Notes: generated from the sequence alone by a model not told the origin. Counted from the first letter of the stretch, positions 22,899-33,657 are shown. The stretch: 64,000 nucleotides of DNA from an uncultured Alphaproteobacteria bacterium (GCA_963841995.1 CAWJEX010000003.1:154081-218080); one strand, 5' to 3'. Made by a program: numbers and translations.

Positions 22899-24639
22899 CT
22901 AATGCATCGGCGGCATCGGCATCGCGACGTCGACGCTATTCTTTCCGAACGCGACGACGCGGCTTGCCGGAAACGTCACCGTGACCACGGTCCCCTGGCC
23001 GACGGTGCTTTGCAACGCGATGGTCCCGCCATGAAGCGTGACAAGGCCGCGGGTAATGGAAAGCCCAAGTCCCACGCCCTCGAACTGGCCCGAGGTTTCG
23101 CGGCGGGCGCGCTCGAAGGGCTTGAAGACATGCTCGATCGAATCGGCCGGAATGCCGACGCCGGTATCGGAAACGCGGATCACCAAATCGCCGTTGTCGC
23201 CCCAGAGCGCGGTCATGTCGACCGCGCCGCCCTCGGGCGTGAATTTGATGGCGTTGGCCAGGAGATTGAGGAGAATTTGCCGCAAGGCTTTCGGGTCGGC
23301 CTCGATCGTGACGTTGCCGCAGGCGACGTCGGCGCGAAGCGCGATCGATTTCGCGCGGGCCTGAAGGCCGACGAATTTGATCGCCTGCTCGACCGCTTCG
23401 GCGAGCACCACATGCTCAATATTCAATGTGACGCGTCCCGCTTCGATCTTGGACATTTCCAAGAGATCGTTGATGAGCGCCAGCAGATGCTCGCCGCTCG
23501 AATGGATGAGCGCCGCATATTCCGTATATTCCTTGCTCGCGATCGGGCCGACGATTTCGCTTTTGATCATCGACGAGAAACCGATGATCGCGTTCAAGGG
23601 TGTTCGCAATTCGTGGCTCATATTGGCGAGAAACATCGATTTGGCGTTGCTGGCGCTCTGCGCTTCCTGCCGCTCGCTGACCAGGGCGACGATGGTCAGC
23701 ACATTGGTGGCCAGCACCACCACGAGCGTGCCGACCAACAGCAGGGGATTGGCCAAGGTTTGGTGCTGAAAGGGTCCAAATCCGGCGACCGTGCCGGCGG
23801 TGGCAAGCACGGCGACCAGCGAGACCAGGGTGTAGGCGGAACGGAGCGACATCCGCAACGCGATCCACGACAGCGGCACCACCAGCAGGAAGGGAAATGC
23901 CGGCCTGATGTCGTAGCCGCGCAGCGACGGCGTCAGGAACAGCATGAGGCTGATCAAAGCGACAAAGCCCCAAACCGCCATGTTCCGGCGATTGATCGCC
24001 CGGTCGGCCATGCGGACAGGCGTTTCAGGCTCCCGTTCGAGTCCCAGCCAAAGGATCACGGCCGGCGCCAGATAGAGCGTGCCGCCGCTGTCGGTGAGCC
24101 ACCACGTCACCCAGGTCGCGTAGAACTTGCCGGGATCGAACGGATGCCCGATCGCCAAAGCCGTGGCGCCGCCGGCGGCGCTGATCGCCGGGGCCAAAAA
24201 GGTGGTGCAGATGACGAAGGCCATCAGCCCGGCGATCGAGGTGAACAATCCGTTTTGCGGCCGCAAGCGCTTGAGGACCAGGATGCTGAGCACGGGACCG
24301 AGCGCGTTGGTCGCCGAAATGAGGGTGGTGATGTGCAAGGGCGGCGCGAACAAGATCGCATTGGCCAGAAACGAGCCCAGAAATATTCCCGGCAGCATCC
24401 GCAAATCGCCGACCATCGCAGCCACGATGGCAACGCTCGCCGGCAGCCAGATCGGCGCCGGGAACAGGCCATAGGAAGCGAAGAACGAATTGACCACCGA
24501 GCCGAGGGCGAAATAGAACGCCACGACCGCGGCATTGGCGCCGATCCAGGGCAAGGCACCGGCATCGGCAAGGAAGGGGGGCGTCCACGGCCGCGAGGGG
24601 CGTGGGATTGCGCCCGCGACCACTAATTCAACCGGCACT
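22899..24639 (-). CDS. sensor histidine kinase with a MASE1-type polytopic membrane sensor domain (orphan, no cognate response regulator nearby). The start is uncertain.
   Basis: The C-terminus has HisKA ('HELRTPLNAIIGF') and HATPase ('LLNLLANAIKF...GVGLGLSI') regions. The N-terminal ~330 aa form 8-9 TM helices. The ORF is open to 24824. A GTG at 24639 gives a plausible start. Confidence 0.8.
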
Positions 24640-24840
24640 GCAGATCCCCTGGCCCGGACACGGCGATGCCCCCCGACACGCGATACCCCCGTATTCTTAA
24701 CACGGGTATTCCGGATCAAAGGTTTTAAAGATTCCTGAAACCGGAAGATATTGGAATCGCGGGCCCGGGCGCCGGACAAAAATCCCAGGAAAATCCGAAG
24801 ATTTAGCCTGAGCCGCAACCGCAACTTGCCGACCGGCGGG

Positions 24841-25323
24841 TCAGGTTTGGGTATGCGCCTCGAGGAACCACAGCGCCTTGTCGAGGGCGCGGGAATAGGT
24901 TGTCAAAATATCCGCCGTGTCGGCGTCCCCGGCCGCGCTGGTCTCGTCGATACCGGCACGGACGGACTTGGCGACCTTGGCATAACGGTCGATCAGTGCC
25001 GCCAAATGATCTTTTTCCTTAAAGATGTCGGTCGGGTAGGGCGACAGGGCCGTGGATTTTGCAACTACTTGCGTGGTCCCGAGGGCGGTTCCGCCCAATT
25101 GCACGACGCGCTCGGCGATCGTGTCGACATGGGTGTCGAGTTCGGTTCGAAAGCCGTCGATCATTTCATGGAGGGCGATGAATTGCGGCCCCTTGATGTT
25201 CCAATGCGCCTGCTTGGTCAGCAGCGCCAGGTCGATCGAATCGGCCAGCCGCGCGTTGAGAATTTCGACGACGACTTTCTTTGTATTTGATTTCAGATCG
25301 TTATGGGCTTCGTACGATTTCAT
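24841..25323 (-). CDS. dps: Dps (DNA protection during starvation, ferritin-like)
   Basis: 'LNARLADSIDLALLTKQAHWNIKGPQFIALHEMIDGF' is the ferroxidase-centre region of Dps. Confidence 0.9.
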   Translation of the reverse strand: MKSYEAHNDLKSNTKKVVVEILNARLADSIDLALLTKQAHWNIKGPQFIALHEMIDGFRTELDTHVDTIAERVVQLGGTALGTTQVVAKSTALSPYPTDIFKEKDHLAALIDRYAKVAKSVRAGIDETSAAGDADTADILTTYSRALDKALWFLEAHTQT

Positions 25324-25427: not shown

Positions 25428-26228
25428 TCACGCATGCCGGAATGCCTCGGCTGCTATCAACTCCTGATAGGCCTGCGCCAGCAAGCGCGCGAGCAGCGGA
25501 GCCCACGCTCGCTGCCCCTCGTCGCCGGCGATCAGGTCCTGGCGAATTTCGATTGCAACGTGATGGAGGCCTCGTCGCTCGCCGTGTACTGGGATGGTGT
25601 AATCCGTCGCGTCGGTCACGCTGTAGGGCTCGTTGTCGCCGACGATGAGCCCCTCTTCGCGTTTCAGCGCCGCCATGAGGAAATGGGCGAAACGCGGATC
25701 GCGATTGTAGAGCACGCCAACGTGCCAGGGCCGCGCCGCGCCCTTGAAGACAGGCGCAAAGCTATGCATCGCCACCAGCACCGCCGGTCGGCCGGCTTGC
25801 CGCCGCCGGTCAAGTTCGGCTTCGATCCGATCATGGTAGGGCCGGAAAATCTCGCCGACGCGCGCGGCCTTCCGGCCTTCGCTCAAGCCCGTATTTCCCG
25901 GAATAGGGGTCAGCTCGCTGATTTCCGGGATCGATGTCTCCGAGCCCGGCATGCGGTTGCAGTCGATGACCAGGCGCGAATAGCTCTGCTGCACCAGGGT
26001 GGCGTCGAGAGCGTCCGCGATGAGGCGGGAGACCGCGGCGACGCCGACGTCCCAGGCGATGTGGCGATCGCATTCGGCTTCCGGAACGCCCAGCCGGCCG
26101 AGCGCGCGCGGAATGGCATTGCCCGCGTGATCGGCGACGATCAGGAATGGCGACGAGCCGTTTTCGTTGCGCACCGTGACCGGCGCCGGCTCGTCGGCCG
26201 CCAACAGGCTATCGGACATCTCGGTCAT
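25428..26228 (-). CDS. N-formylglutamate amidohydrolase (HutG-like, FGase) family protein
   Basis: 'FLIVADHAGNAIP...' matches the FGase/zinc-hydrolase fold family over its full length. Confidence 0.7.
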   Translation of the reverse strand: MTEMSDSLLAADEPAPVTVRNENGSSPFLIVADHAGNAIPRALGRLGVPEAECDRHIAWDVGVAAVSRLIADALDATLVQQSYSRLVIDCNRMPGSETSIPEISELTPIPGNTGLSEGRKAARVGEIFRPYHDRIEAELDRRRQAGRPAVLVAMHSFAPVFKGAARPWHVGVLYNRDPRFAHFLMAALKREEGLIVGDNEPYSVTDATDYTIPVHGERRGLHHVAIEIRQDLIAGDEGQRAWAPLLARLLAQAYQELIAAEAFRHA

Positions 26229-26362
26229 TGGCGCTCACGCTCGTGGCTGAAACGCCGGTATGGTAGCGACATGCGCTGTTCTTGGCCCGAAAAATGCCTG
26301 TCTAGTAAAAATGCGTGTTTAGTAATGCATGTTAGTGGGGCTTGTCCCATTGGGGAACTGCA

Positions 26363-27257
26363 ATGCCGATAATCGCCATCAGGCACGTCACGACCTATCG
26401 CTATAAGCAACCGGTCTCGTTCGGCGAACACCGGATGATGTTGCGGCCGCGCGACGACGACGACCAGGAGCTGCTCGAATCCGAGCTCGAAATCACGCCC
26501 GAGCCGAGCCAACTTACCTGGATACAGGATATCTTCGGCAATCATGTCGCGATCGCCCGTTTCGCGGAGCCGGCCGCAGAGCTTCGCTTCGTCAGCACCA
26601 CTTGTGTCAACCACGCGCCGTCGGGGCTTCCACGCAGCCGATAGCGATAATTTTGCCCGAAGATATCCGTTTGGCTACGCCGCGGAAGATAGACCGGGGC
26701 TCGCGAGTTTTATCGCGCCGCTGGCATCGCAGCCCGCGCTCGATCGCTGGGTCGCCAGGTTTCTCCGCGAGGACGGATCGGCCGACACCCACGAACTTCT
26801 CGTCGACATGACGCAGACCATCAAGCGGACCTTCAAGCACACGGCGCGGCACGAGAAGGGCACCCAGGATCCGATCAGGACGCTGAAGCTCGCGAGCGGG
26901 AGTTGTCGCGACCTTGCGGTGCTCATGATCGCGGCGCTGCGCTCGCTTGGAATCGCCGCACGGTTCGTGTCCGGATATCTGCATCTTGCCGATGACGGCG
27001 ACCGTGTCGCCGGCGGTAACACCCATGCCTGGGTCCAGGTCCACGTTCCCGGCCCGGGCTGGGTCGACTTCGATCCGTCGAGCGGCATGGTCGGGAATCA
27101 GAACCTGGTGCGCGTCGCGGTCGTGCTCGAGCCGCGCGAGGCGATTCCGTTGCAAGGCACGTGGATCGGGACCGCGTCGGACCATCTCGCCATGAAGGTC
27201 GCGGTCAAGGTCACCGCGGCAGCGGATGCCGGCGCGACGTGGTCCCGCGCGGGATGA
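26363..27257 (+). CDS. transglutaminase-family protein (Bact_transglu_N + transglutaminase-like Cys-protease core), with an apparent frameshift at ~26595-26635
   Basis: 'MPIIAIRHVTTYRYKQPV...LRPRDD...DIFGNHVA' is the N-terminal domain (ORF 26342..26644). 'YPFGYAAEDRP...GSCRDLAVLMIAALRSLGIAARFVSGY...HAWVQVHVPGPGWVDFDPS' is the core with the catalytic Cys (ORF 26544..27257). The two overlap in different frames. Confidence 0.65.
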
Positions 27258-27353
27258 TGACCCGGCCTCGACGTGCGGCCATTCGTCGCGCGCGCGAAGA
27301 CCGGAATTTTCGGTCTCTCTTGGCACGCCGGCGCCGGCGCCGAGAGGTTTTCG

Positions 27354-28182
27354 ATGAAAATTCGTGCAGGCTACGAGATTTCCTATGACTGCCCGCAGCC
27401 GACGCCCATGATCCTGACGCTGAGCGTCCATCCGTCACGCGTTCCCGATCTGCTGACCCGGGATCGCATGCCGTCTCGATCCGCCCATCCCCGCCAACAC
27501 CTATCACGACAGTTTCGGCAATTTCTGCCACGTGATCCGCGCCCCCGCGGGCCGGCTGACCATGTCCACGGACTTCCTGGTGCAGGACAAGGGCGAGCCG
27601 GACGCGATCGCCCCGCAGGCGGAGCAGCATGCGCTCGAAGACCTTCCGGTGGAGGTCCTGATCTATCTGCTCGGCAGCCGCTACTGCGAGACCGATCGTC
27701 TATCGAATACGGCGTGGTCCCTGTTCGGGCAGGTTCCGAAGGGTTGGCCGCTGGTGAAGGCGATCTGCGACTACGTCCACGATCGCATCACCTTCGGTTA
27801 CGAGCACGCGAGCCCGACCAAGACGGCATGGGATGCCCATACCGAGCGACGCGGCGTGTGCCGGGACTTCGCCCACCTCGCGGTCACGCTGTGCCGCTGC
27901 ATGAACATTCCGGCGCGCTACTGCACCGGCTATCTCGGCGACATCGGCGTGCCGCTCGACGATCCGCCGATGGATTTCAGCGCCTGGTTCGAAGCCTATC
28001 TCGGCGGCCGCTGGTACACCTTCGATGCCCGCCACAACAAGCCGCGCATCGGCCGCATCCTGATGGCACGCGGGCGCGACGCCACCGACGTCGCGATCGT
28101 GACCTCATTCGGCCCGTGTACGCTCGCGAGCTTCAAGGTGATCACCGACGAGGTCACGTCGACCGCTCCCGCGAGTCCGTGA
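27354..28182 (+). CDS. transglutaminase-family protein, paralogue of the previous gene, with an apparent frameshift at ~27466-27480
   Basis: 'MKIRAGYEISYDCPQPTPMILTLSVHPSR' is in frame 1. 'DPPIPANTYHDSFGNFCHVIRAPAGRL...RGVCRDFAHLAVTLCRCMNIPARYCTGY...FSAWFEAYLGGRWYTFD' is in the adjacent frame. Confidence 0.65.
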
Positions 28183-29083
28183 CGGTTTCAAGCCCCGCGG
28201 CGCCGAAATTGTCGCTTCACTTGCCCTCGCGGCTGGCGATGGCGTCCCCTATGTCACCGTCTCGGCTGTCCTGGTGGATTTCTAAACGGTGCCGCCTTCA
28301 CCATCGGCAGCGTGAACAAAACCTCACCATCACCACCCAACAACTCACCAGCCCGAACCGGCAAGCGCGAGCGCGAACCCAGGAGGATAACTGGCGGAGG
28401 AAGGGAGGTGTTTGGTGGGGTTATTTTTGCTGACGCGCGCAGGTTACCCTATTCCGGGAAAATCCTTTCCTTGCCGTCGTCGGTTCTCAACAGACCACCA
28501 TAATATGGAGGCCCCGATGCAGCGTAATCCCGTATTTCCTGCGGTCTTAAAAGTCGTTCATGTACCATCAGAGCTTGCTTTGAGATTTCCCCGACATCGT
28601 CGAAGGCAGTTATGTTCAGTTCCGCTCCTACGACGAACCCCAGCGGAATCTCCTTGGGTGCTCCTGCACCGTCTTTCGTGATCGTTCGGGCCGAAGCAAC
28701 TGACGCACCAAGTCCTCAAACCGGTGCGGGTCTAAATCTTCAAAGTGAAGAGGATTTATGGTTTTCGTCGCCGACGACATACGTTAGCAAAGAGTTTGAT
28801 CAAGAGTGTCTAATTCCCTCTATTGGCCGGAATGGCTGCCGTATGAAGCATTTCGTTTATTGCTCGCCCAATCCTTTTCCACACCACCGCGCCGTCCAGA
28901 ACGCCAGCCGCCAGAAAATTGGCCGCCCTCATCGCCGCGTAAATACGGGCGTGTGTGCGCCGTGCTGCTTGATGCGGATGCGTGCGGAGCGGAACGCCAG
29001 AAGTCTTAGTCACCTGCATCCCTTCCGTTGTTTTTCGCACCTCTCTGCAGCATTATAGCTCGGCGCAAAGGACGGGGGATGGC

Positions 29084-29263
29084 ATGAAACCGACATTTTT
29101 CCTCATAACTGCGCTTTTCATCTTGACGGTGGCACCAACTATTGCTGCAGCCTTTGGCTGCGGCTTGCCACCGCTGCCACCGTTGGGTTGCGAGGCCTCA
29201 AGCGGACAATGCATTTGCGACGCGAACGGAAATTGCCAATGGATATTTACCCACTGCCACTAA
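29084..29263 (+). CDS. small secreted Cys-rich peptide (59 aa; six Cys in the ~35-aa mature part)
   Basis: 'MKPTFFLITALFILTVAPTIAAA|FGCGLPPLPPLGCEASSGQCICDANGNCQWIFTHCH'. The ORF has a signal peptide and a purine-rich stretch ahead of the ATG. It lies in locally low-GC DNA. Confidence 0.4.
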   Translation: MKPTFFLITALFILTVAPTIAAAFGCGLPPLPPLGCEASSGQCICDANGNCQWIFTHCH

Positions 29264-29856
29264 TCAATCGCGGGCTTTTCGAACCGACTGCCGACCCAGT
29301 GCTCATTATTTTGCGGCAGGGACGAAAGGTTATTCCGCTAGCCGCTCTTATCTTAGTAGCGGTTGTTTGGCTGCGTTCGCAGATCGACGGATTTCTACAC
29401 GGTCCAGATGGATGCGGGCCAGTAAGTGGGCGACTGACGCTACGCCAACTCCACCTTGCATTCAGAGCTCCATTTTCGAACAGGAATACTCGACGCGCCC
29501 CGCAATGCAATCGGGCGGCATCGGGGCTGCTCCCGACCGCAGGTAATGTGGCATTACATCCGGAGACGGCGACTGGGTTCCGTTCCGCGTGAACCGCGGC
29601 GTCGTCGCCGTACTGCTTGATGAGAATGTGCACGGAGCGCCAGATGCCGACGTCGCCTGTTGCCATTCGATGACGCGCTTTACGATTTCCCGACAAACAG
29701 TCGTGTTTTTTTACACTCAAGAATTGATGACAACGCTTAACCGCATGAATTCCCAGAAATCTCGGATATTGGCCCAAATCTTGCGTTAACTATTTTGGAC
29801 TACCGGAGATCTGGCTGGGTGGCACTTAATCTCCGGAGCAACTGGTGGAGTCACGA

Positions 29857-30462
29857 ATGCGGAAGCTTGGTTTATGGATGGCGTCGGCTGCCTTCATTGC
29901 TTTCCAGGTGCCGTACGCGAACGCAGATACTTTCGATTGGAGCTATACCGACGTACCGTTTGGAGGCTCCGACGTGGGGGGCGGCACGCTCACAGCAACC
30001 GATGATGGTTTAGGTCAATACACCCTTGATACAATTTCGGGCACGGCCGATGGGCAGACCGTTTTAGGGCCCAGCTCTTATGATGGTCCCGATCAGTTTT
30101 TGTATTATTTCCCTCCTCCTGATGTTCAATGCAGTGGCGCGAGTGCGCCTTGTCCGCCGGGAGGTACTTATGTCGCCCTTGATACGGGGGGGTTCTCATT
30201 CAGTGTGGGGGCGGGGACGGATTCGTACAATCTCTACGAAGATGATGGTGTCTTTAGTCCCGGCCCTCCCTATGGCTGCGGAGGAGTCTATTGCCTGTTG
30301 GGGCCGGGAACAGTTGGCGCTGGTGATCCATTTACTACCGTAGAGTTTTCGCTAACGCCCGTTCCCGAGCCAGCATCTCTCGGCATCTTCGGCATCGGTC
30401 TAGCGGGCCTCGGCTGGATGCGCCGCCGTCGCTTGGCCTCACGGGCTCTCAAGGCCGCGTAA
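29857..30462 (+). CDS. PEP-CTERM (exosortase-sorted) secreted protein
   Basis: It has a signal peptide and ends 'VPEPASLGIFGIGLAGLGWMRRRRLASR' (VPEP motif + TM + Arg cluster). The body is Gly/Thr/Asp-rich. Confidence 0.65.
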   Translation: MRKLGLWMASAAFIAFQVPYANADTFDWSYTDVPFGGSDVGGGTLTATDDGLGQYTLDTISGTADGQTVLGPSSYDGPDQFLYYFPPPDVQCSGASAPCPPGGTYVALDTGGFSFSVGAGTDSYNLYEDDGVFSPGPPYGCGGVYCLLGPGTVGAGDPFTTVEFSLTPVPEPASLGIFGIGLAGLGWMRRRRLASRALKAA

Positions 30463-30581
30463 ACCGGATCATCAAAGAGTTTTCCAGCGGCGGTTCCCTC
30501 GTGGAGCCGCCGTTTTTGTTTGCGCGTGAACCGCCACGCTTGCGCCGTCCTTGACGCAAGCGTGGCGGTCAAACGTATGCC

Positions 30582-30743
30582 CTACGAACCGGCGCGATCT
30601 TCCTGCATGGCGGCGAGATATTCATAAATCGTCGCCTTCCCAAGAACCAATCGGTGGGCGACGGCTGCTGCTTTCGGTGAAAGCGGCCGTTGTGCCCGTT
30701 CGATTATGTCCCGGAGAATTGGCGGAATCGGCATTTCTGACAT
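30582..30743 (-). CDS. orphan 53-aa HTH protein resembling the C-terminal HTH_7 domain of serine recombinases/resolvases
   Basis: 'MSEMPIPPILRDIIERAQRPLSPKAAAVAHRLVLGKATIYEYLAAMQEDRAGS*' was found by manual translation and is below the ORF-track length cutoff. The pattern 'VAHRLVLGKATIYEYL' is like 'VARRLGVSRSTLYRYL'. No catalytic domain lies upstream. Confidence 0.35.
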   Translation of the reverse strand: MSEMPIPPILRDIIERAQRPLSPKAAAVAHRLVLGKATIYEYLAAMQEDRAGS

Positions 30744-30942
30744 CACTTAAATCACCGCCTTTCGTGGGCGGGGAACTCAAGCGATCGGGTCGCGAATTCT
30801 ACCCGCCCGACACATAACGCTGCCGGCCGCGTGGGTGCAAGGTCCAGCTTCGGCTGGGGCTTTCGGGTGGCCTGGCTAATGGCGTATATTTTACAAATGC
30901 TTTACAGACGCCGGAGGCTGTTGCTTAAGCTATTGAAATGAT

Positions 30943-31018
30943 TGGCGTCCCCTAGGGGAGTCGAACCCCTGTTCCCGCCGTGAGAGGGCGGTGTCCTGGG
31001 CCACTAGACGAAGGGGAC
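30943..31018 (-). tRNA. tRNA-Glu (anticodon CUC)
   Basis: The reverse complement is a 76-nt cloverleaf with a 3' CCA: GTCCCCTTCGTCTAGTGGCCCAGGACACCGCCCTCTCACGGCGGGAACAGGGGTTCGACTCCCCTAGGGGACGCCA. The anticodon stem is CCGCC/GGCGG and the loop CTCTCAC. Confidence 0.9.
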
Positions 31019-31178
31019 TTGGCGGCCAATTGGAAGGATGGCCAGTCTTAGCGGATGGCCCGGGCCGGTTCAAGGCTAGCGCCTAAGTCCCTGTGCGCAT
31101 TGATCCCAGAGTGAAGATCCCTGAGAGAATTGATCCTGGGGCCTTGGCTCCCTGGGTGAATTGACCTTCGCACCTTGA

Positions 31179-31523
31179 TTAGGGACCGAAATCGAATTCG
31201 CCCAAGGCGGCGCCGGAATCGAGATCGACCACGATGAGGCGCGGGCTGCCATCGGCCAGGCGCAGTCTCAGGATCATGCGATTGCCGGATGTGATTACAT
31301 CGTCAAGATGCGCGCCTTCGGGGAGAGCGATGTGCTGGGTTCCGAAGCCGCGCTTTTCGGCCCCCGCGGTTTTCCCCACCTCGGTAGTTTTCTCGGCGGC
31401 CGGCGTTTCGTCTTTCGCCTCGAGATGCGCGGTCGTGCGCTTGTAGAGCGTCACCGCCACCAGACCGGCGCCGGCCGCGATCAATATCGCCATCAGGATG
31501 ACGAGGGCCTTGAGCGCTCGCAT
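31179..31523 (-). CDS. hypothetical small membrane-anchored protein
   Basis: It has an N-terminal TM helix ('ALVILMAILIAAGAGLVAV') and an ~85-aa soluble domain. The rest of the long ORF 31179..32540 is antisense to rluD. Confidence 0.4.
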   Translation of the reverse strand: MRALKALVILMAILIAAGAGLVAVTLYKRTTAHLEAKDETPAAEKTTEVGKTAGAEKRGFGTQHIALPEGAHLDDVITSGNRMILRLRLADGSPRLIVVDLDSGAALGEFDFGP

Positions 31524-31604
31524 GGTTCCGGTCCACCCTCTCCGCCGATAGAGTCCCGCCAATGCACTACGCCCCAACGAACGGGGCCGATAAGCAATTC
31601 GCCG

Positions 31605-32594
31605 ATGGCCGATTTGAACGAGCAGCGCCCCAACGAACAGCGCCATTATGTTGCGGCAACCGCCAAGCATAAGGGCGAGCGCCTGGACAAATTGCTCGCC
31701 GCGGCCTTGCCCGCGCTGTCGCGCACGCGCCTCAAGAATTTGATCGAAGCGGGCCGCGTTGCCTGCGCGGGTGCGACGATAACCGACGCCTCGCGCCGGG
31801 TCAAACCGGGGGAAATCTTCGAGATCGTGGTGCCGCCGCCGGTTCCCGCGGAACCGCGCGCGCAAAATATTCCGCTCGCGATCGTCTATGAGGACGAGGA
31901 TTTGATCGTGATCGACAAGCCGGCGGGGCTCGTCGTTCACCCGGCCCCCGGCAACCGCGACAACACGCTGGTCAACGCTCTCCTCGCCCATTGCGGAAAG
32001 AGTTTTTCGGGAATCGGCGGGGTGATGCGCCCCGGCATCGTTCATCGTCTCGACAAGGATACGAGCGGGCTGATGGTGGTGGCGAAAAACGACGCGGCCC
32101 ATGCGTCGCTGGCCCGGCAATTTGCCGAGCGGACGATGAGCCGCGCCTATTATGCGGTGGTCTGGGGCGTCCCGCGAAAAGCGGAGGGCGAGATTTCCGG
32201 GAATATCGGGCGCAATCCGCACTTTCGGAAAAAAATGGCGGTGGTGAAGAGCGGCGGCAAACCGGCGCTGACCCGCTACAAGGTTTTGCGCAGCTTCGGC
32301 AAGATGGCCAGTCTGATCGAATGCCGGCTGATGAGCGGCCGCACCCATCAGATCCGCGTCCACATGGCGGCCATCGGCCATCCGGTCATCGGCGATACGG
32401 TTTACGGCGGCAAATCGCCACCGGGAATCAAATTGGACCCCGCTCTCGCAACTGCAGCAAAGCACCTCGGCCGGCAGGCGCTTCACGCCTATTTGATTGG
32501 CTTCGATCACCCGAGAACCGGCGAGAGGCTCGAATTTCAATCAAATATAACTTCTGATATCAATATGTTGATAGAACTCTTGGAAAAATCATGA
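31605..32594 (+). CDS. rluD: 23S rRNA pseudouridine synthase RluD (RluA family)
   Basis: It has an S4 domain ('ERLDKLLAAAL...') and the catalytic 'HRLDKDTSGLMVVAKN' motif. Confidence 0.9.
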   Translation: MADLNEQRPNEQRHYVAATAKHKGERLDKLLAAALPALSRTRLKNLIEAGRVACAGATITDASRRVKPGEIFEIVVPPPVPAEPRAQNIPLAIVYEDEDLIVIDKPAGLVVHPAPGNRDNTLVNALLAHCGKSFSGIGGVMRPGIVHRLDKDTSGLMVVAKNDAAHASLARQFAERTMSRAYYAVVWGVPRKAEGEISGNIGRNPHFRKKMAVVKSGGKPALTRYKVLRSFGKMASLIECRLMSGRTHQIRVHMAAIGHPVIGDTVYGGKSPPGIKLDPALATAAKHLGRQALHAYLIGFDHPRTGERLEFQSNITSDINMLIELLEKS

Positions 32595-32766
32595 TCTAGC
32601 TTATATACCTGAGTAGGTTACTCAGATATTGTTGACGCACCGCCCGCAAAAGAGCTAAGTTAACGACAACGGGCGAGCGACCCCCAAAACCTTCGGGCCG
32701 GGGGGCTCGCCCGTTTCGCCCTAAGGGCCAGGGTACCAAACAGAAAAAATGGCCTAGGAGATTGGA

Positions 32767-33657
32767 ATGGCAACGAGCACCTCATACCGCCTGCCCAGCC
32801 TTGGATCGGAACGCGGCCTCTCGCGCTATCTCGGGGAGATTCGCAAGTTTCCGATGCTGACGCCGGAAGAGGAATTCATGCTCGCCAAGCGTTGGCGCGA
32901 GCATAGCGATTCCGAAGCCGCGCATCGTTTGGTCACGAGCCATCTCCGGCTCGTCGCCAAGATTGCGATGGGGTATCGCGGTTACGGACTGCCGCTCAAC
33001 GAACTTATTTCGGAAGGCAATGTCGGCATGATGCAAGCGGTCAAGCGCTTCGATCCCGACCGTGGCTTCCGGCTCGCGACCTATGCGATGTGGTGGATCC
33101 GCGCGGCAATCCAGGAATACATCCTGCATTCCTGGTCGCTGGTGAAACTCGGCACGACTGCGGCGCAGAAGAAGCTGTTCTTCAATCTGCGCAAGCTCAA
33201 GGGCCAGATCAAAGCGGTCGAAGAAGGCGATTTGACCCCCGAACACGTCAAGAAGATCGCCGAAGAGCTGAACGTGACCGAAGAAGACGTGATCTCGATA
33301 AATCGCCGGTTGATCGGCGCCGATCATTCGCTGAATGCGCCCTTGCGCGCCGACAGCGAGGGCGAGTGGCAGGATTGGCTGGTCGACGAAACGGCGAATC
33401 AAGAAGAGACGCTCGCCGAGAAAGAAGAAATGACCAATCGCCACGATCTGCTCGGACAGGCGCTGAAAACGCTGAGCGAACGCGAGCGGCATATCTTGAA
33501 CGAACGGCGCTTGCGCGACGAGCCGTTGACGCTCGAGGATTTGTCGCAGGAATACGGCATTTCCCGCGAACGGGTGCGGCAGATCGAGGTTCGCGCCTTC
33601 GAGAAGCTGCAAAAGGCGATGAAAAATCTGGTGATCGAGCAGCGCCTGGCAAAATAA
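32767..33657 (+). CDS. rpoH: RNA polymerase sigma-32 (heat-shock sigma factor RpoH)
   Basis: It carries the RpoH box 'QKKLFFNLRKLK' and sigma regions 2-4. Confidence 0.95.
   Translation: MATSTSYRLPSLGSERGLSRYLGEIRKFPMLTPEEEFMLAKRWREHSDSEAAHRLVTSHLRLVAKIAMGYRGYGLPLNELISEGNVGMMQAVKRFDPDRGFRLATYAMWWIRAAIQEYILHSWSLVKLGTTAAQKKLFFNLRKLKGQIKAVEEGDLTPEHVKKIAEELNVTEEDVISINRRLIGADHSLNAPLRADSEGEWQDWLVDETANQEETLAEKEEMTNRHDLLGQALKTLSERERHILNERRLRDEPLTLEDLSQEYGISRERVRQIEVRAFEKLQKAMKNLVIEQRLAK

What the first reader, a model, noticed from the sequence alone, without database searches (positions are those of the whole stretch)
29084..29263. Small secreted six-cysteine peptide, candidate bacteriocin-like or signalling peptide
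The precursor is 'MKPTFFLITALFILTVAPTIAAA' + 'FGCGLPPLPPLGCEASSGQCICDANGNCQWIFTHCH'. It has a clean Sec signal, a purine-rich stretch ahead of the ATG, and a 36-aa mature part with six Cys (potentially three disulfides) and a PPLPPL turn. It sits upstream of the PEP-CTERM gene in the islet. No maturation or immunity genes are evident nearby, so the function is open.
Basis: seen in the sequence. Interest (0 to 1): 0.5.

Follow-up and report, generated by a model that had tools for sequence, protein, structure and literature searches.

The report
Phage-borne secreted six-cysteine mini-protein
This is a real 59-codon gene for an exported mini-protein with six conserved cysteines; it belongs to a large, unnamed family carried mostly by bacteriophages and sits here in a small decayed insertion next to a tRNA gene, with its function still unknown.

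Summary
The ORF at 29084-29263 (+) is exactly as described. It is not a chance ORF. A full HMMER scan of 1.84 billion proteins found 151 relatives (E<=1e-3). Of the 151 sequences counted (150 listed hits plus the query), 138 share the spacing C-G-Φ-x-P-Φ-x-P-Φ-G-C…C-x-C-D…C-x-W…C at the extreme C-terminus, behind a signal-peptide-like N-terminus. A family HMM built without the window peptide scores it at 74.8 bits.

No Pfam or NCBIfam model and no PDB or BFVD structure matches. The gene is not called in the source assemblies.

Six of the seven relatives looked up on longer contigs lie among phage hallmark genes; the seventh context is merely phage-like. A strict DNA motif also found 23 IMG/VR viral contigs. 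The gene has no conserved neighbour, maturase, exporter or immunity gene. It is often a lone reverse-strand gene beside tail-fibre, terminase or integrase genes, like a moron.

In the window it lies in a 2.7-kb lower-GC islet. The islet is bounded by an exact 12-nt repeat of the tRNA-Glu 3' end, holds what look like gene fragments, and is absent in a syntenic relative.

Best reading: cargo of a decayed integrative element that encodes a disulfide-stabilised envelope binder. Superinfection exclusion is the leading inferred function. The bacteriocin or signalling reading is not supported but not excluded.

The parts
29084..29263 (+). Gene for the 59-aa precursor (stop codon included).
   Evidence: ORF read. 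Family membership: (74.8 bits against a leave-one-out HMM).
29070..29079 (+). Purine-rich Shine-Dalgarno-like stretch, GGACGGGGGA, 4 nt upstream of the ATG.
   Evidence: Read directly from the sequence. Function is inferred.
29084..29152 (+). Signal-peptide-like N-terminus (residues 1-23: MKP, hydrophobic core TFFLITALFILTV, then APTIAAA).
   Evidence: Sequence. AlphaFold helix at residues 4-14. A comparable N-terminus is present in 153 of 160 family members. The cleavage site is inferred from the -3/-1 rule and was not predicted with a dedicated tool.
29159..29257 (+). Six-cysteine domain (C26 to C58): C-G-L-P-P-L-P-P-L-G-C-x6-C-I-C-D-x4-C-Q-W-x4-C.
   Evidence: Invariant or >=90% conserved columns in the 84-sequence alignment are C26, G27, P30, P33, G35, C36, C43, C45, C51, W53 and C58. 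Spacing statistics. pLDDT is above 90 with a beta-hairpin at 41-45/51-55.
28240..28251 (+). Left copy of the exact 12-nt direct repeat TGGCGTCCCCTA (att-like), 58 nt after the stop of the transglutaminase-like gene.
   Evidence: These are the only two matches in 64 kb on both strands, even allowing one mismatch.
30943..31018 (-). tRNA-Glu (CUC). Its 3' end including CCA (30943-30954) is the right copy of the 12-nt repeat.
   Evidence: ARAGORN; Rfam tRNA at 57.2 bits; repeat.
28252..30942 (.). 2.7-kb lower-GC islet between the two repeat copies. It holds the peptide gene, the PEP-CTERM gene and what look like gene fragments. It is absent in the syntenic relative L002, and different DNA occupies the site in L004.
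   Evidence: GC 0.51-0.58 from 28250 to 30349, rising to 0.57-0.62 towards the tRNA, against 0.63-0.70 in the flanks. Synteny comparison. Fragments.
29845..30462 (+). Neighbouring PEP-CTERM protein gene. It shares the islet but is not a conserved partner of the peptide.
   Evidence: PF07589 and TIGR02595 hits. A 100%-identical protein is annotated in an NCBI Alphaproteobacteria MAG. Homologues elsewhere lie next to IS110 transposases with no peptide gene.
30486..30514 (+). Strong intrinsic-terminator-like hairpin (12 pairs followed by a T-run) after the PEP-CTERM gene. No such site lies between the peptide gene and the PEP-CTERM gene.
30582..30746 (-). 54-aa ORF with a helix-turn-helix-like C-terminus (…GKATIYEYL…), possibly a remnant of a mobile-element regulator or recombinase. 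It is called as a gene in a near-identical assembly.
   Evidence: The Pfam HTH hits are below threshold (E 0.022-0.043). Called gene in L124.
28958..28991 (.). One copy of a 34-nt repeat (82% identical to 29606-29639). Both copies lie in minus-strand fragments of a small ORF type ('IKQHG…').
   Evidence: The weak DUF6961 hit has E 0.071.

Best explanation
The ORF is a genuine gene. It encodes a Sec-type exported precursor whose ~36-aa mature part is a mini-protein with six conserved cysteines. It consists of a proline-rich loop (G-Φ-x-P-Φ-x-P-Φ-G) between the first two cysteines, followed by a C-x-C-D…C-x-W…C beta-hairpin. It belongs to a large, unnamed and unannotated family that travels mainly in bacteriophage genomes as a stand-alone accessory gene. 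The gene is often a lone reverse-strand insertion beside tail-fibre, terminase or integrase genes, like a moron. The window copy is cargo of a small, decayed integrative element inserted at the 3' end of tRNA-Glu. Shown: the gene, the family, the conserved cysteine scaffold, the phage contexts and the islet anatomy. Inferred: export to the periplasm; oxidation of the six cysteines to three disulfides by the host Dsb system; action as a very stable binder of an envelope or periplasmic component with no further enzymatic maturation. The most likely use is in phage-host or phage-phage conflict, with superinfection exclusion or receptor or injection blocking as the leading candidate. I put roughly 0.3 on that specific function.
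For: - **Family.** There are 151 relatives at E<=1e-3 among 1.84e9 proteins. Of 151 sequences counted (150 listed hits plus the query), 138 keep the six-Cys spacing; the domain ends within 2 residues of the C-terminus in 109 of those 138. The leave-one-out HMM gives 74.8 bits.
- **Export.** A hydrophobic N-terminal segment is present in 153 of 160 members and K/R in the first 12 residues in 148 of 160. A few members are lipoprotein-tethered or carry 30-70-aa linkers ahead of the same C-terminal domain, which fits a binding module.
- **Structure.** AlphaFold gives the mature domain pLDDT above 90 with a beta-hairpin.
- **Phage carriage.** Six of seven longer contigs carry phage hallmarks: Terminase_2, Phage_integrase, D5_N/DUF5906 primase, Phage_stabilise, DUF2793 tail fibre, LPD23/LPD38, Apyc1 and Acb5. 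The seventh is only phage-like. Twenty-three IMG/VR viral contigs carry bona fide members. PHROG hits to TerS, TerL, portal, tail fibre and integrase lie next to the gene.
- **Stand-alone gene.** No neighbour family recurs in more than 3 of 30 loci, and the gene is frequently antisense to both flanking genes.
- **Islet.** It lies next to tRNA-Glu, is bounded by an exact 12-nt repeat of the tRNA 3' end, shows a GC dip, is absent or different in syntenic relatives, and contains ORF fragments.
- **Background.** Morons are independent, horizontally moved units with deviating GC (PMC3594210). Exported phage proteins such as Cor, Imm and Sp mediate superinfection exclusion (PMC11436027).
Against: - No experiment or expression data exist for any member.
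- No target, fold relative or functional homologue was found.
- No member was detected in 50,697 GenBank phage records by tblastn, so no cultured phage-host pair is known.
- The phage enrichment rests on about 30 contexts. Seven were picked for contig length, and 23 came from a virus-only collection.
- The window islet has no integrase or phage structural gene, and the att-like repeat is only 12 nt.
- No sigma-70-like promoter or terminator flanks the window gene, and it was not called as a gene in the collection. This copy may be silent.
- A Gram-negative host, and hence periplasmic location, is inferred only from the alphaproteobacterial window and one weak Rz-like spanin hit.
- Disulfide connectivity could not be read from the model.
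Confidence: 0.55

Rival explanations
1. Bacteriocin-like antimicrobial peptide: the exported disulfide-rich peptide is released and kills competing bacteria, giving the lysogen or host an advantage.
For: It is a small, exported peptide with six conserved cysteines. Accessory genes on phages can benefit lysogens (PMC3594210).
Against: No immunity gene, dedicated ABC exporter or double-glycine leader occurs in any of about 30 contexts. Sec export in a Gram-negative host reaches only the periplasm. The mean net charge of the domain is about 0 (-2 in the window copy), not cationic. No bacteriocin family matched in Pfam or NCBIfam. Some members are lipoprotein-tethered, which does not suit a diffusible toxin.
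Confidence: 0.12
2. Periplasmic inhibitor or regulator of a host or phage enzyme, such as a lysozyme or transglycosylase, a protease, or a lysis-timing component. It would act like T4 Spackle or a proteinaceous lysozyme inhibitor rather than as a receptor blocker.
For: It is exported, compact, rich in conserved cysteines and stand-alone. In several viral contigs it lies at the junction before the terminase genes, where lysis cassettes often sit, and next to a membrane and coiled-coil protein with a weak Rz-like spanin hit. Sp is listed among exclusion proteins acting through lysozyme modulation (PMC11436027).
Against: There is no sequence or fold similarity to any known inhibitor. No endolysin or holin neighbour was identified. 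Positions in phage genomes are heterogeneous.
Confidence: 0.15
3. Diffusible signalling peptide (phage-phage or cell-cell communication), analogous in logic to arbitrium.
For: It has a Sec-type N-terminus and is a phage-borne small gene. A few members gave sub-threshold hits to AimP, Phr and NprX N-terminal models, which is explained by signal-peptide similarity.
Against: There is no adjacent receptor or regulator gene and no conserved neighbour at all. The conserved part is a 33-aa six-cysteine domain, not a short linear processed peptide. The hits have E values of 0.009-0.08 and involve single members.
Confidence: 0.06
4. Relic in this genome: the family is real, but the window copy is a silent leftover of a decayed element that survives intact only because it is short.
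For: The islet appears to be full of fragments. It has no integrase. No promoter-like or terminator-like site flanks the gene. The gene is not called in the collection.
Against: All 11 conserved family positions are intact, and the sequence scores close to the family consensus (74.8 bits). A Shine-Dalgarno-like element is present. The same islet DNA is 99.8% identical in a second assembly from 29723 onward. This rival concerns expression only and does not contradict the family assignment.
Confidence: 0.25
5. Cys-rich RiPP precursor (bufferin-like, MNIO-modified) or metal-binding peptide.
For: It combines a Sec signal with conserved cysteines, as in bufferins (own knowledge of that family).
Against: There is no hit to any Cys-rich RiPP model in Pfam or NCBIfam for the window peptide or for 84 members. 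No DUF692/MNIO, radical-SAM or other maturase was seen beside any member.
Confidence: 0.03
6. Chance ORF in lower-GC DNA.
For: It is short, unannotated, and lies in a region with many spurious ORFs.
Against: Searches show a large family with an invariant cysteine scaffold, and the window ORF matches it at E 3e-21.
Confidence: 0.01

Closest known systems
Phage superinfection-exclusion envelope proteins (phi80/N15 Cor and T5 Llp lipoproteins that inactivate FhuA; T4 Imm and Sp)
   Same: All are small, exported, phage-encoded, stand-alone accessory genes with no partner enzymes. Some members of this family lie directly beside tail-fibre or receptor-binding genes and on the opposite strand (L091, L102, L105), as llp does beside the T5 receptor-binding gene (own knowledge). 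Cor, Imm and Sp are listed as exclusion factors in PMC11436027.
   Different: There is no sequence or fold similarity. Most members, including the window peptide, have no lipobox. This family has a six-cysteine scaffold with a proline-rich loop. No exclusion phenotype has been tested.
Lambda Bor and other classical morons
   Same: The gene is an independent unit inserted between phage modules, often antisense to its neighbours, with deviating GC, and it is spread horizontally among unrelated phages (definition in PMC3594210).
   Different: Bor is a lipoprotein of a different family. For the window copy no dedicated promoter or terminator was detected.
Disulfide-rich mini-proteins (EGF-like modules, knottins, defensins)
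   Same: They share a size of about 35 aa, six cysteines, a central beta-hairpin and a C-x-C…G-x-C motif reminiscent of EGF. The window peptide has a sub-threshold EGF_Tenascin hit (E 0.69), and one member has a Ragweed_pollen hit (E 0.008).
Bufferins and other Sec-exported Cys-rich RiPPs
   Same: They share a Sec signal followed by a short Cys-rich core.
   Different: There is no model match and no MNIO/DUF692 or partner gene in any context.
Gram-negative microcins and class II bacteriocins
   Same: They are small, gene-encoded, sometimes disulfide-bonded exported peptides.
   Different: Those use double-glycine leaders with dedicated ABC exporters and have adjacent immunity genes. None is present here.

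Membership tests
Unnamed six-cysteine family defined here (signal peptide + C-G-Φ-x-P-Φ-x-P-Φ-G-C-x3-6-C-x-C-D-x3-5-C-x-W-x3-4-C) | Six cysteines at the family spacing, plus the conserved G, P, D and W positions. | tested here: met
   The window spacing 9/6/1/5/6 is shared with 17 other members. All invariant or >=90% conserved columns are present. The leave-one-out HMM gives 74.8 bits, E 3e-21.
Unnamed six-cysteine family defined here (signal peptide + C-G-Φ-x-P-Φ-x-P-Φ-G-C-x3-6-C-x-C-D-x3-5-C-x-W-x3-4-C) | Signal-peptide-like N-terminus with the domain at the extreme C-terminus. | tested here: met
   The window N-terminus has K2 and a hydrophobic core with KD 2.99, and one residue follows the last Cys. 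In the family, 153 of 160 members have a hydrophobic N-terminus, and the tail is 0-2 aa in 109 of 138. No dedicated signal-peptide predictor was available.
Unnamed six-cysteine family defined here (signal peptide + C-G-Φ-x-P-Φ-x-P-Φ-G-C-x3-6-C-x-C-D-x3-5-C-x-W-x3-4-C) | Location in a phage or prophage. | tested here: inconclusive
   Relatives lie in phage contexts. The window copy is in a tRNA-adjacent, repeat-bounded, lower-GC islet but has no phage hallmark gene.
Phage moron | An extra gene inserted between modules, independent of its neighbours in orientation, with deviating GC. | tested here: met
   It is a lone reverse-strand gene in L091, L100, L102, L112, L115, L119 and L120. GC dips in the window islet.
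Phage moron | Own promoter and terminator. | tested here: inconclusive
   No sigma-70-like promoter or terminator flanks the window gene. The consensus scan may not fit this organism, and this was not tested in the phage loci.
Class II bacteriocin or microcin | Double-glycine leader or dedicated exporter, and an adjacent immunity gene. | tested here: not met
   The N-terminus is Sec-type. There is no conserved neighbour and no exporter or immunity gene in the window or in relatives.
Bufferin / MNIO-modified RiPP | Match to the precursor models, and a neighbouring DUF692 (MNIO) enzyme. | tested here: not met
   There are no Pfam or NCBIfam hits for the peptide or for 84 members. No DUF692 appears in any neighbour list.
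Llp/Cor-type exclusion lipoproteins | Lipobox with an acylated Cys. | tested here: not met
   The window sequence A-F-G-C does not fit even a permissive lipobox pattern. Only 5 of 168 members have an upstream lipobox, and 14 have the domain Cys in a lipobox-like context.
Llp/Cor-type exclusion lipoproteins | Blocks the phage receptor or DNA entry. | not testable with these tools
   This needs plating or adsorption assays with an expressing strain.
EGF-like / knottin / defensin folds | Significant structural match and matching disulfide topology. | tested here: not met
PEP-CTERM/exosortase cargo or partner | A PEP-CTERM motif in the peptide, or conserved pairing with the PEP-CTERM gene. | tested here: not met
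   The peptide has no PEP-CTERM hit. PEP-CTERM homologue loci L125 and L126 have no family peptide. Phage loci have no PEP-CTERM gene.

The most novel reading that the evidence does not exclude
A widespread, so far unrecognised class of phage-encoded, host-exported mini-proteins with six conserved cysteines. A proline-rich loop is clamped onto a Trp-bearing hairpin. The proteins act in the bacterial envelope as a new type of phage-host or phage-phage conflict effector, for example a non-lipoprotein periplasmic superinfection-exclusion factor or a blocker of a conserved envelope machine. Copies are domesticated or stranded in bacterial chromosomes, as in this one.
Probability: 0.3. Interest if true: 0.75.

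Novelty: new variant of a known kind. Interest (0 to 1): 0.6.

Why it matters
Small phage genes are the least understood part of viral gene content. This one is a compact, confidently modelled domain that matches no existing family or solved fold. It recurs in viral contigs with GC from 38% to 67%, so it probably does something general at the cell envelope.

If it blocks a receptor, DNA entry or an envelope enzyme, it would be a new and very small tool for phage resistance, and a very stable binding scaffold. For genome annotation, the family is currently invisible: there is no Pfam or NCBIfam model, and the gene is not called in the source assemblies. The motif and HMM defined here would allow it to be found.

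For this genome, it marks the tRNA-Glu site as an integration hotspot with variable content.

Tried and rejected
**Searches that found nothing**
- The word-indexed protein search with the single peptide found nothing.
- The exact product, as 59 aa or as 93 aa from the upstream GTG, is not on record.
- tblastn-confirmed pattern scans with the window peptide found nothing in GTDB species genomes or in IMG/VR. The patterns were too specific to the query.
- tblastn of three members against 50,697 GenBank phages found nothing.
- The plasmid collection gave only a chance 14-aa hit at E 7, and the islet DNA had no plasmid match.
- Pfam and NCBIfam on the peptide and on 84 members gave only scattered sub-threshold hits.
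- The AFDB50 library was unavailable.

**Ideas considered and dropped**
- Metagenome loci L084-L086 matched only 17 aa and carry no family motif.
- The literature on 'cysteine-rich repeats' linked to phage attP (PMC7379824; bioRxiv 10.64898/2026.06.07.730663) concerns repeated modules of eukaryotic proteins, not this family.
- o-spanin: there is no lipobox, and the gene is on the opposite strand from the putative spanin-like gene.
- Functional pairing with the PEP-CTERM gene is rejected.
- A conserved partner gene is rejected at BLASTP sensitivity.
- Rfam found only the tRNA in 28000-31300.

Full report
**1. The observation**

ATG at 29084 and TAA ending at 29263 on the + strand give 59 codons and the stated product. 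A purine-rich GGACGGGGGA lies 4 nt upstream. The N-terminus (MKP, a 13-residue hydrophobic core, then APTIAAA) looks like a Sec/SPase I signal. That leaves a 36-aa mature peptide with six cysteines.

In fact the GC is 51-58% between about 28250 and 30350, against 63-70% in the flanking genes. The PEP-CTERM gene 582 nt downstream is real (PF07589 E 5.7e-8; TIGR02595). It is followed by a strong terminator-like hairpin at 30486-30514.

**2. A real gene in a large family**

Quick searches failed. There was no Pfam or NCBIfam hit, no word-indexed homologue and no match in GTDB species genomes.

A pattern and tblastn scan of metagenome contigs then found three ORFs with the same design (ORFs read). 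An exhaustive phmmer scan of 1.84 billion representative proteins found 151 relatives at E<=1e-3, the best at 5.8e-11.

Of the 151 sequences counted (150 listed hits plus the query), 138 fit one cysteine pattern: C-x9(-14)-C-x2-8-C-x-C-x3-12-C-x-[WYF]-x2-5-C. In 109 of those 138 the domain ends within two residues of the C-terminus.

In an 84-sequence alignment (A1), C26, P30, C43, C51 and C58 are invariant. G27, P33, G35, C36, C45 and W53 are at least 90% conserved. The residue after the fourth Cys is Asp in 137 of 168 sequences with the full motif. That set includes further relatives fetched later.

N-termini are not conserved in sequence but are conserved in kind. A hydrophobic segment is present in 153 of 160 and K/R in the first 12 residues in 148 of 160. 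This is what an export signal should look like.

An HMM built without the window peptide scores the window ORF at 74.8 bits (E 3e-21). The next-best of 24,441 ORF segments from the window plus 1.4 Mb of alphaproteobacterial control loci scores 16 bits. The chance-ORF reading is excluded.

**3. Anatomy of the domain**

The first inter-cysteine loop is G-Φ-x-P-Φ-x-P-Φ-G. The three hydrophobic positions are identical in 69 of 130 nine-residue loops (LLL 43, III 14, FFF 7). A variant has one extra x-P-Φ unit (spacing 12). This fits a short tandem 9-nt repeat in the DNA.

AlphaFold2 with A1 gives mean pLDDT 82.8. The mature domain is above 90 and has a beta-hairpin at residues 41-45 and 51-55. Disulfide connectivity could not be read.

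Nothing in the PDB or BFVD resembles it:
- Foldseek against the PDB gave a best E of 1.9.
- The A1 profile against PDB sequences gave a best E of 0.64.
- Foldseek against BFVD gave a best E of 0.9.

None of the 84 aligned members hits a Pfam or NCBIfam family above noise.

Most members look SPase I-cleaved. Only 5 of 168 have an upstream lipobox. About a fifth carry a 30-70-aa linker before the same C-terminal domain. The mean net charge of the domain is near zero.

**4. Where relatives live**

I looked up seven family members, choosing those with the longest contigs and ignoring content. Six lie among phage hallmark genes:
- L087: DUF1367, AAA_24, DUF932 and beta-helix tail spikes.
- L088: Terminase_2, resolvase, HNH and anti-Pycsar Apyc1.
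- L091-093: a DUF2793 tail fibre, LPD23, Phage_stabilise and a P22-type protein.
- L094/095: the peptide gene lies immediately after a phage integrase and next to a D5_N/DUF5906 primase.
- L096: LPD38 and peptidase S8.
- L097: DnaG-type primase, DUF5131 and anti-CBASS Acb5.

The seventh, L123, is a dense array of small ORFs with an HTH_3 gene.

The contigs of one member are IMG/VR viral genomes. A strict degenerate DNA pattern for the motif found 23 IMG/VR contigs of 10-61 kb with GC 0.38-0.67. Every hit is a bona fide family ORF. L081 has an integrase nearby, and L082 has an IS-type transposase.

All-against-all BLASTP of neighbours within 4 kb in 30 non-redundant loci found no family shared by more than three loci. 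The gene therefore has no dedicated partner, maturase, exporter, immunity gene or receptor.

It is often a single reverse-strand gene wedged between co-oriented genes. PHROG hits confirm the neighbouring functions:
- Just before TerS, TerL and portal in L112, L115, L119 and L120.
- Beside tail-fibre genes in L091 and L102, and beside an 862-aa ORF that I take for a tail fibre in L105. That ORF has no PHROG or Pfam hit.
- Near replication genes in L097, L110 and L122.

This is the anatomy of a moron as defined in PMC3594210.

No member was detected in 50,697 GenBank phage records or in plasmids. The family is so far known only from uncultured material.

**5. The window locus**

A tRNA-Glu (CUC) lies at 30943-31018 on the minus strand (Rfam 57.2 bits). 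Its 3' end including CCA reads TGGCGTCCCCTA on the plus strand. That 12-mer recurs exactly once more in the 64-kb window, at 28240-28251. This is 58 nt after the stop of the conserved transglutaminase-like gene, exactly where GC drops and where similarity to relatives ends.

With one mismatch allowed on both strands, 0.2 matches are expected in the whole window. By my own estimate, an exact copy on the same strand within 3 kb would be expected about 1e-4 times.

The 2.7 kb between the repeats holds the following:
- the peptide gene and the PEP-CTERM gene;
- a 54-aa ORF with an HTH-like end;
- an N-terminal fragment of a larger protein on the minus strand (28628-28780);
- two fragments of a small 'IKQHG…WKRIGRAINEML' ORF type that share a 34-nt repeat. 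One appears frameshifted. Only a sub-threshold DUF6961 hit supports the identification.

In the closest syntenic relative, L002, about 366 bp of unrelated spacer separates the transglutaminase gene from the tRNA-like sequence. In L004 the same site holds 3 kb with two ORFs that look like Crp/Fnr-type regulators by eye; no family search was run on them.

The site is therefore a variable integration hotspot. The islet looks like the decayed remnant of an integrative element. No integrase or phage structural gene remains.

A second assembly that is 99.8% identical breaks its contig at 29723, between the peptide gene and the PEP-CTERM gene. The peptide gene is not called in the collection.

The PEP-CTERM protein is annotated in an NCBI Alphaproteobacteria MAG. 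Its homologues elsewhere sit next to IS110 transposases and have no family peptide. The two islet genes are neighbours, not partners.

**6. How it most likely works**

Shown: a conserved, exported-looking mini-protein with six conserved cysteines; phage carriage; no partner genes; insertion at a tRNA.

Inferred: Sec export; signal cleavage near AAA|FG; oxidation of the six cysteines to three disulfides by the host Dsb system; no other maturation.

A very stable 33-36-aa fold that sometimes sits at the end of a lipoprotein tether or long linker points to a binding module. The target would be an envelope or periplasmic component.

Exported stand-alone phage accessory proteins with known roles mostly serve superinfection exclusion. 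Cor inactivates FhuA, and Imm and Sp block DNA entry (PMC11436027). T5 Llp is another example from my own knowledge. Others give lysogens a benefit, as Bor does (PMC3594210). The repeated adjacency to tail-fibre genes fits the exclusion model best. I give that specific function about 0.3.

The rivals are:
- a periplasmic enzyme or lysis inhibitor (0.15);
- a bacteriocin-like toxin (0.12), weakened by the lack of immunity and exporter genes and by the neutral charge;
- a signalling peptide (0.06);
- a RiPP or metal-binding peptide (0.03).

Independently of function, this particular copy may be a silent relic (0.25).

**7. Comparison with known families, and novelty**

In logic it works like moron-encoded exported envelope proteins. 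It is not a member of any of those families. There is no lipobox, no sequence or fold match and no model hit. It fails the defining features of class II bacteriocins and microcins and of bufferin-type RiPPs.

I rate it a new variant of a known kind: a new family of small exported phage accessory proteins. It is not categorically new, because no new mechanism has been shown.

**8. Verdict**

The phage origin and the tRNA islet are new findings. Interest is 0.6. This is a clean, widespread, unannotated family with a confident model and a testable hypothesis, but no functional evidence yet.

Noticed in passing
window 28240-28251 and 30943-31018; loci L002 10652-11080 and L004 10658-13810: The site between the transglutaminase-like gene and tRNA-Glu(CUC) is variable. 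The window has a 2.7-kb islet bounded by a 12-nt repeat of the tRNA 3' end. L002 has about 366 bp of unrelated spacer. L004 has a different 3-kb insert with two ORFs that look like Crp/Fnr-type regulators by eye (no family search was run).
   Followed up: partly
window 28958-28991 and 29606-29639 (also 28810-29040 and about 29600-29700, minus strand): A 34-nt repeat (82% identical) lies inside two minus-strand fragments of a small ORF type ('…IRIKQHG…' and '…AAGVLDGAVVWKRIGRAINEML'). One copy seems frameshifted. The only family hint is a sub-threshold DUF6961 hit (E 0.071).
   Followed up: partly
window 28628-28780 (-): A 50-aa ORF, 'MSSATKTINPLHFEDLDPHRFEDLVRQLL…', looks like the N-terminal stub of a larger protein. 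It has no Pfam or NCBIfam hit and is probably gene debris in the islet.
   Followed up: partly
window 29723 (contig end of L124, GCA_049280315.1): A second assembly that is 99.8% identical over window 29723-33191 ends its contig between the peptide gene and the PEP-CTERM gene. The break is about 85 nt from one copy of the 34-nt repeat, which suggests assembly ambiguity or strain heterogeneity inside the islet.
   Followed up: partly
window 29845-30462; loci L125 5001-5573 and L126 5001-5558: The PEP-CTERM protein has 48-58% identical homologues that sit directly beside IS110-family transposases in two long contigs. This PEP-CTERM gene type also seems to live in variable regions.
   Followed up: partly
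L119 1439-2356, L120 2816-3724, L112 4323-5369, L115 62-949, L103 938-1882: In several viral contigs the gene just behind the reverse-oriented peptide gene encodes a 300-350-aa protein with N-terminal TM segments, a coiled coil carrying two Cys, and a C-terminal TM. It has no family assignment except a weak Rz-like spanin hit for L115. In L112, L115, L119 and L120, TerS, TerL and portal genes follow. Its relation to the peptide is unknown.
   Followed up: partly
proteins P0010, P0075, P0140 (family relatives): Some relatives carry two or three tandem copies of a reduced version of the domain, C-G-Φ-K-P-Φ-P-P-Φ-G-[YH/M]…C…W/E. They keep the proline loop but only two cysteines per copy.
   Followed up: no
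window 26342-28182 (+), 25428-26228 (-), 24841-25323 (-), 22899-24824 (-): Upstream of the islet lie two consecutive transglutaminase-core genes (PF01841, E about 1e-20 each), an N-formylglutamate amidohydrolase (PF05013) and, read by eye from the translations, a Dps-like ORF and a membrane histidine kinase. Downstream lie a pseudouridine synthase and a sigma-70-family factor (Pfam hits), probably RluD and RpoH. This is ordinary chromosomal context of a Hyphomicrobiales-like alphaproteobacterium. The closest flanks are in Microflora Danica MAGs, Methylocystis and Xanthobacter.
   Followed up: partly
alignment A1 against PDB chains 8e9g_A and 5xtc_j: The start of the domain (…C-G-Φ-x-P-Φ-x-P) weakly resembles the conserved 'ECG[IF]DP[LM]xP' loop of complex I subunit NuoA/ND3 (E 0.64-3.7). 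This is not significant and is taken as chance.
   Followed up: no
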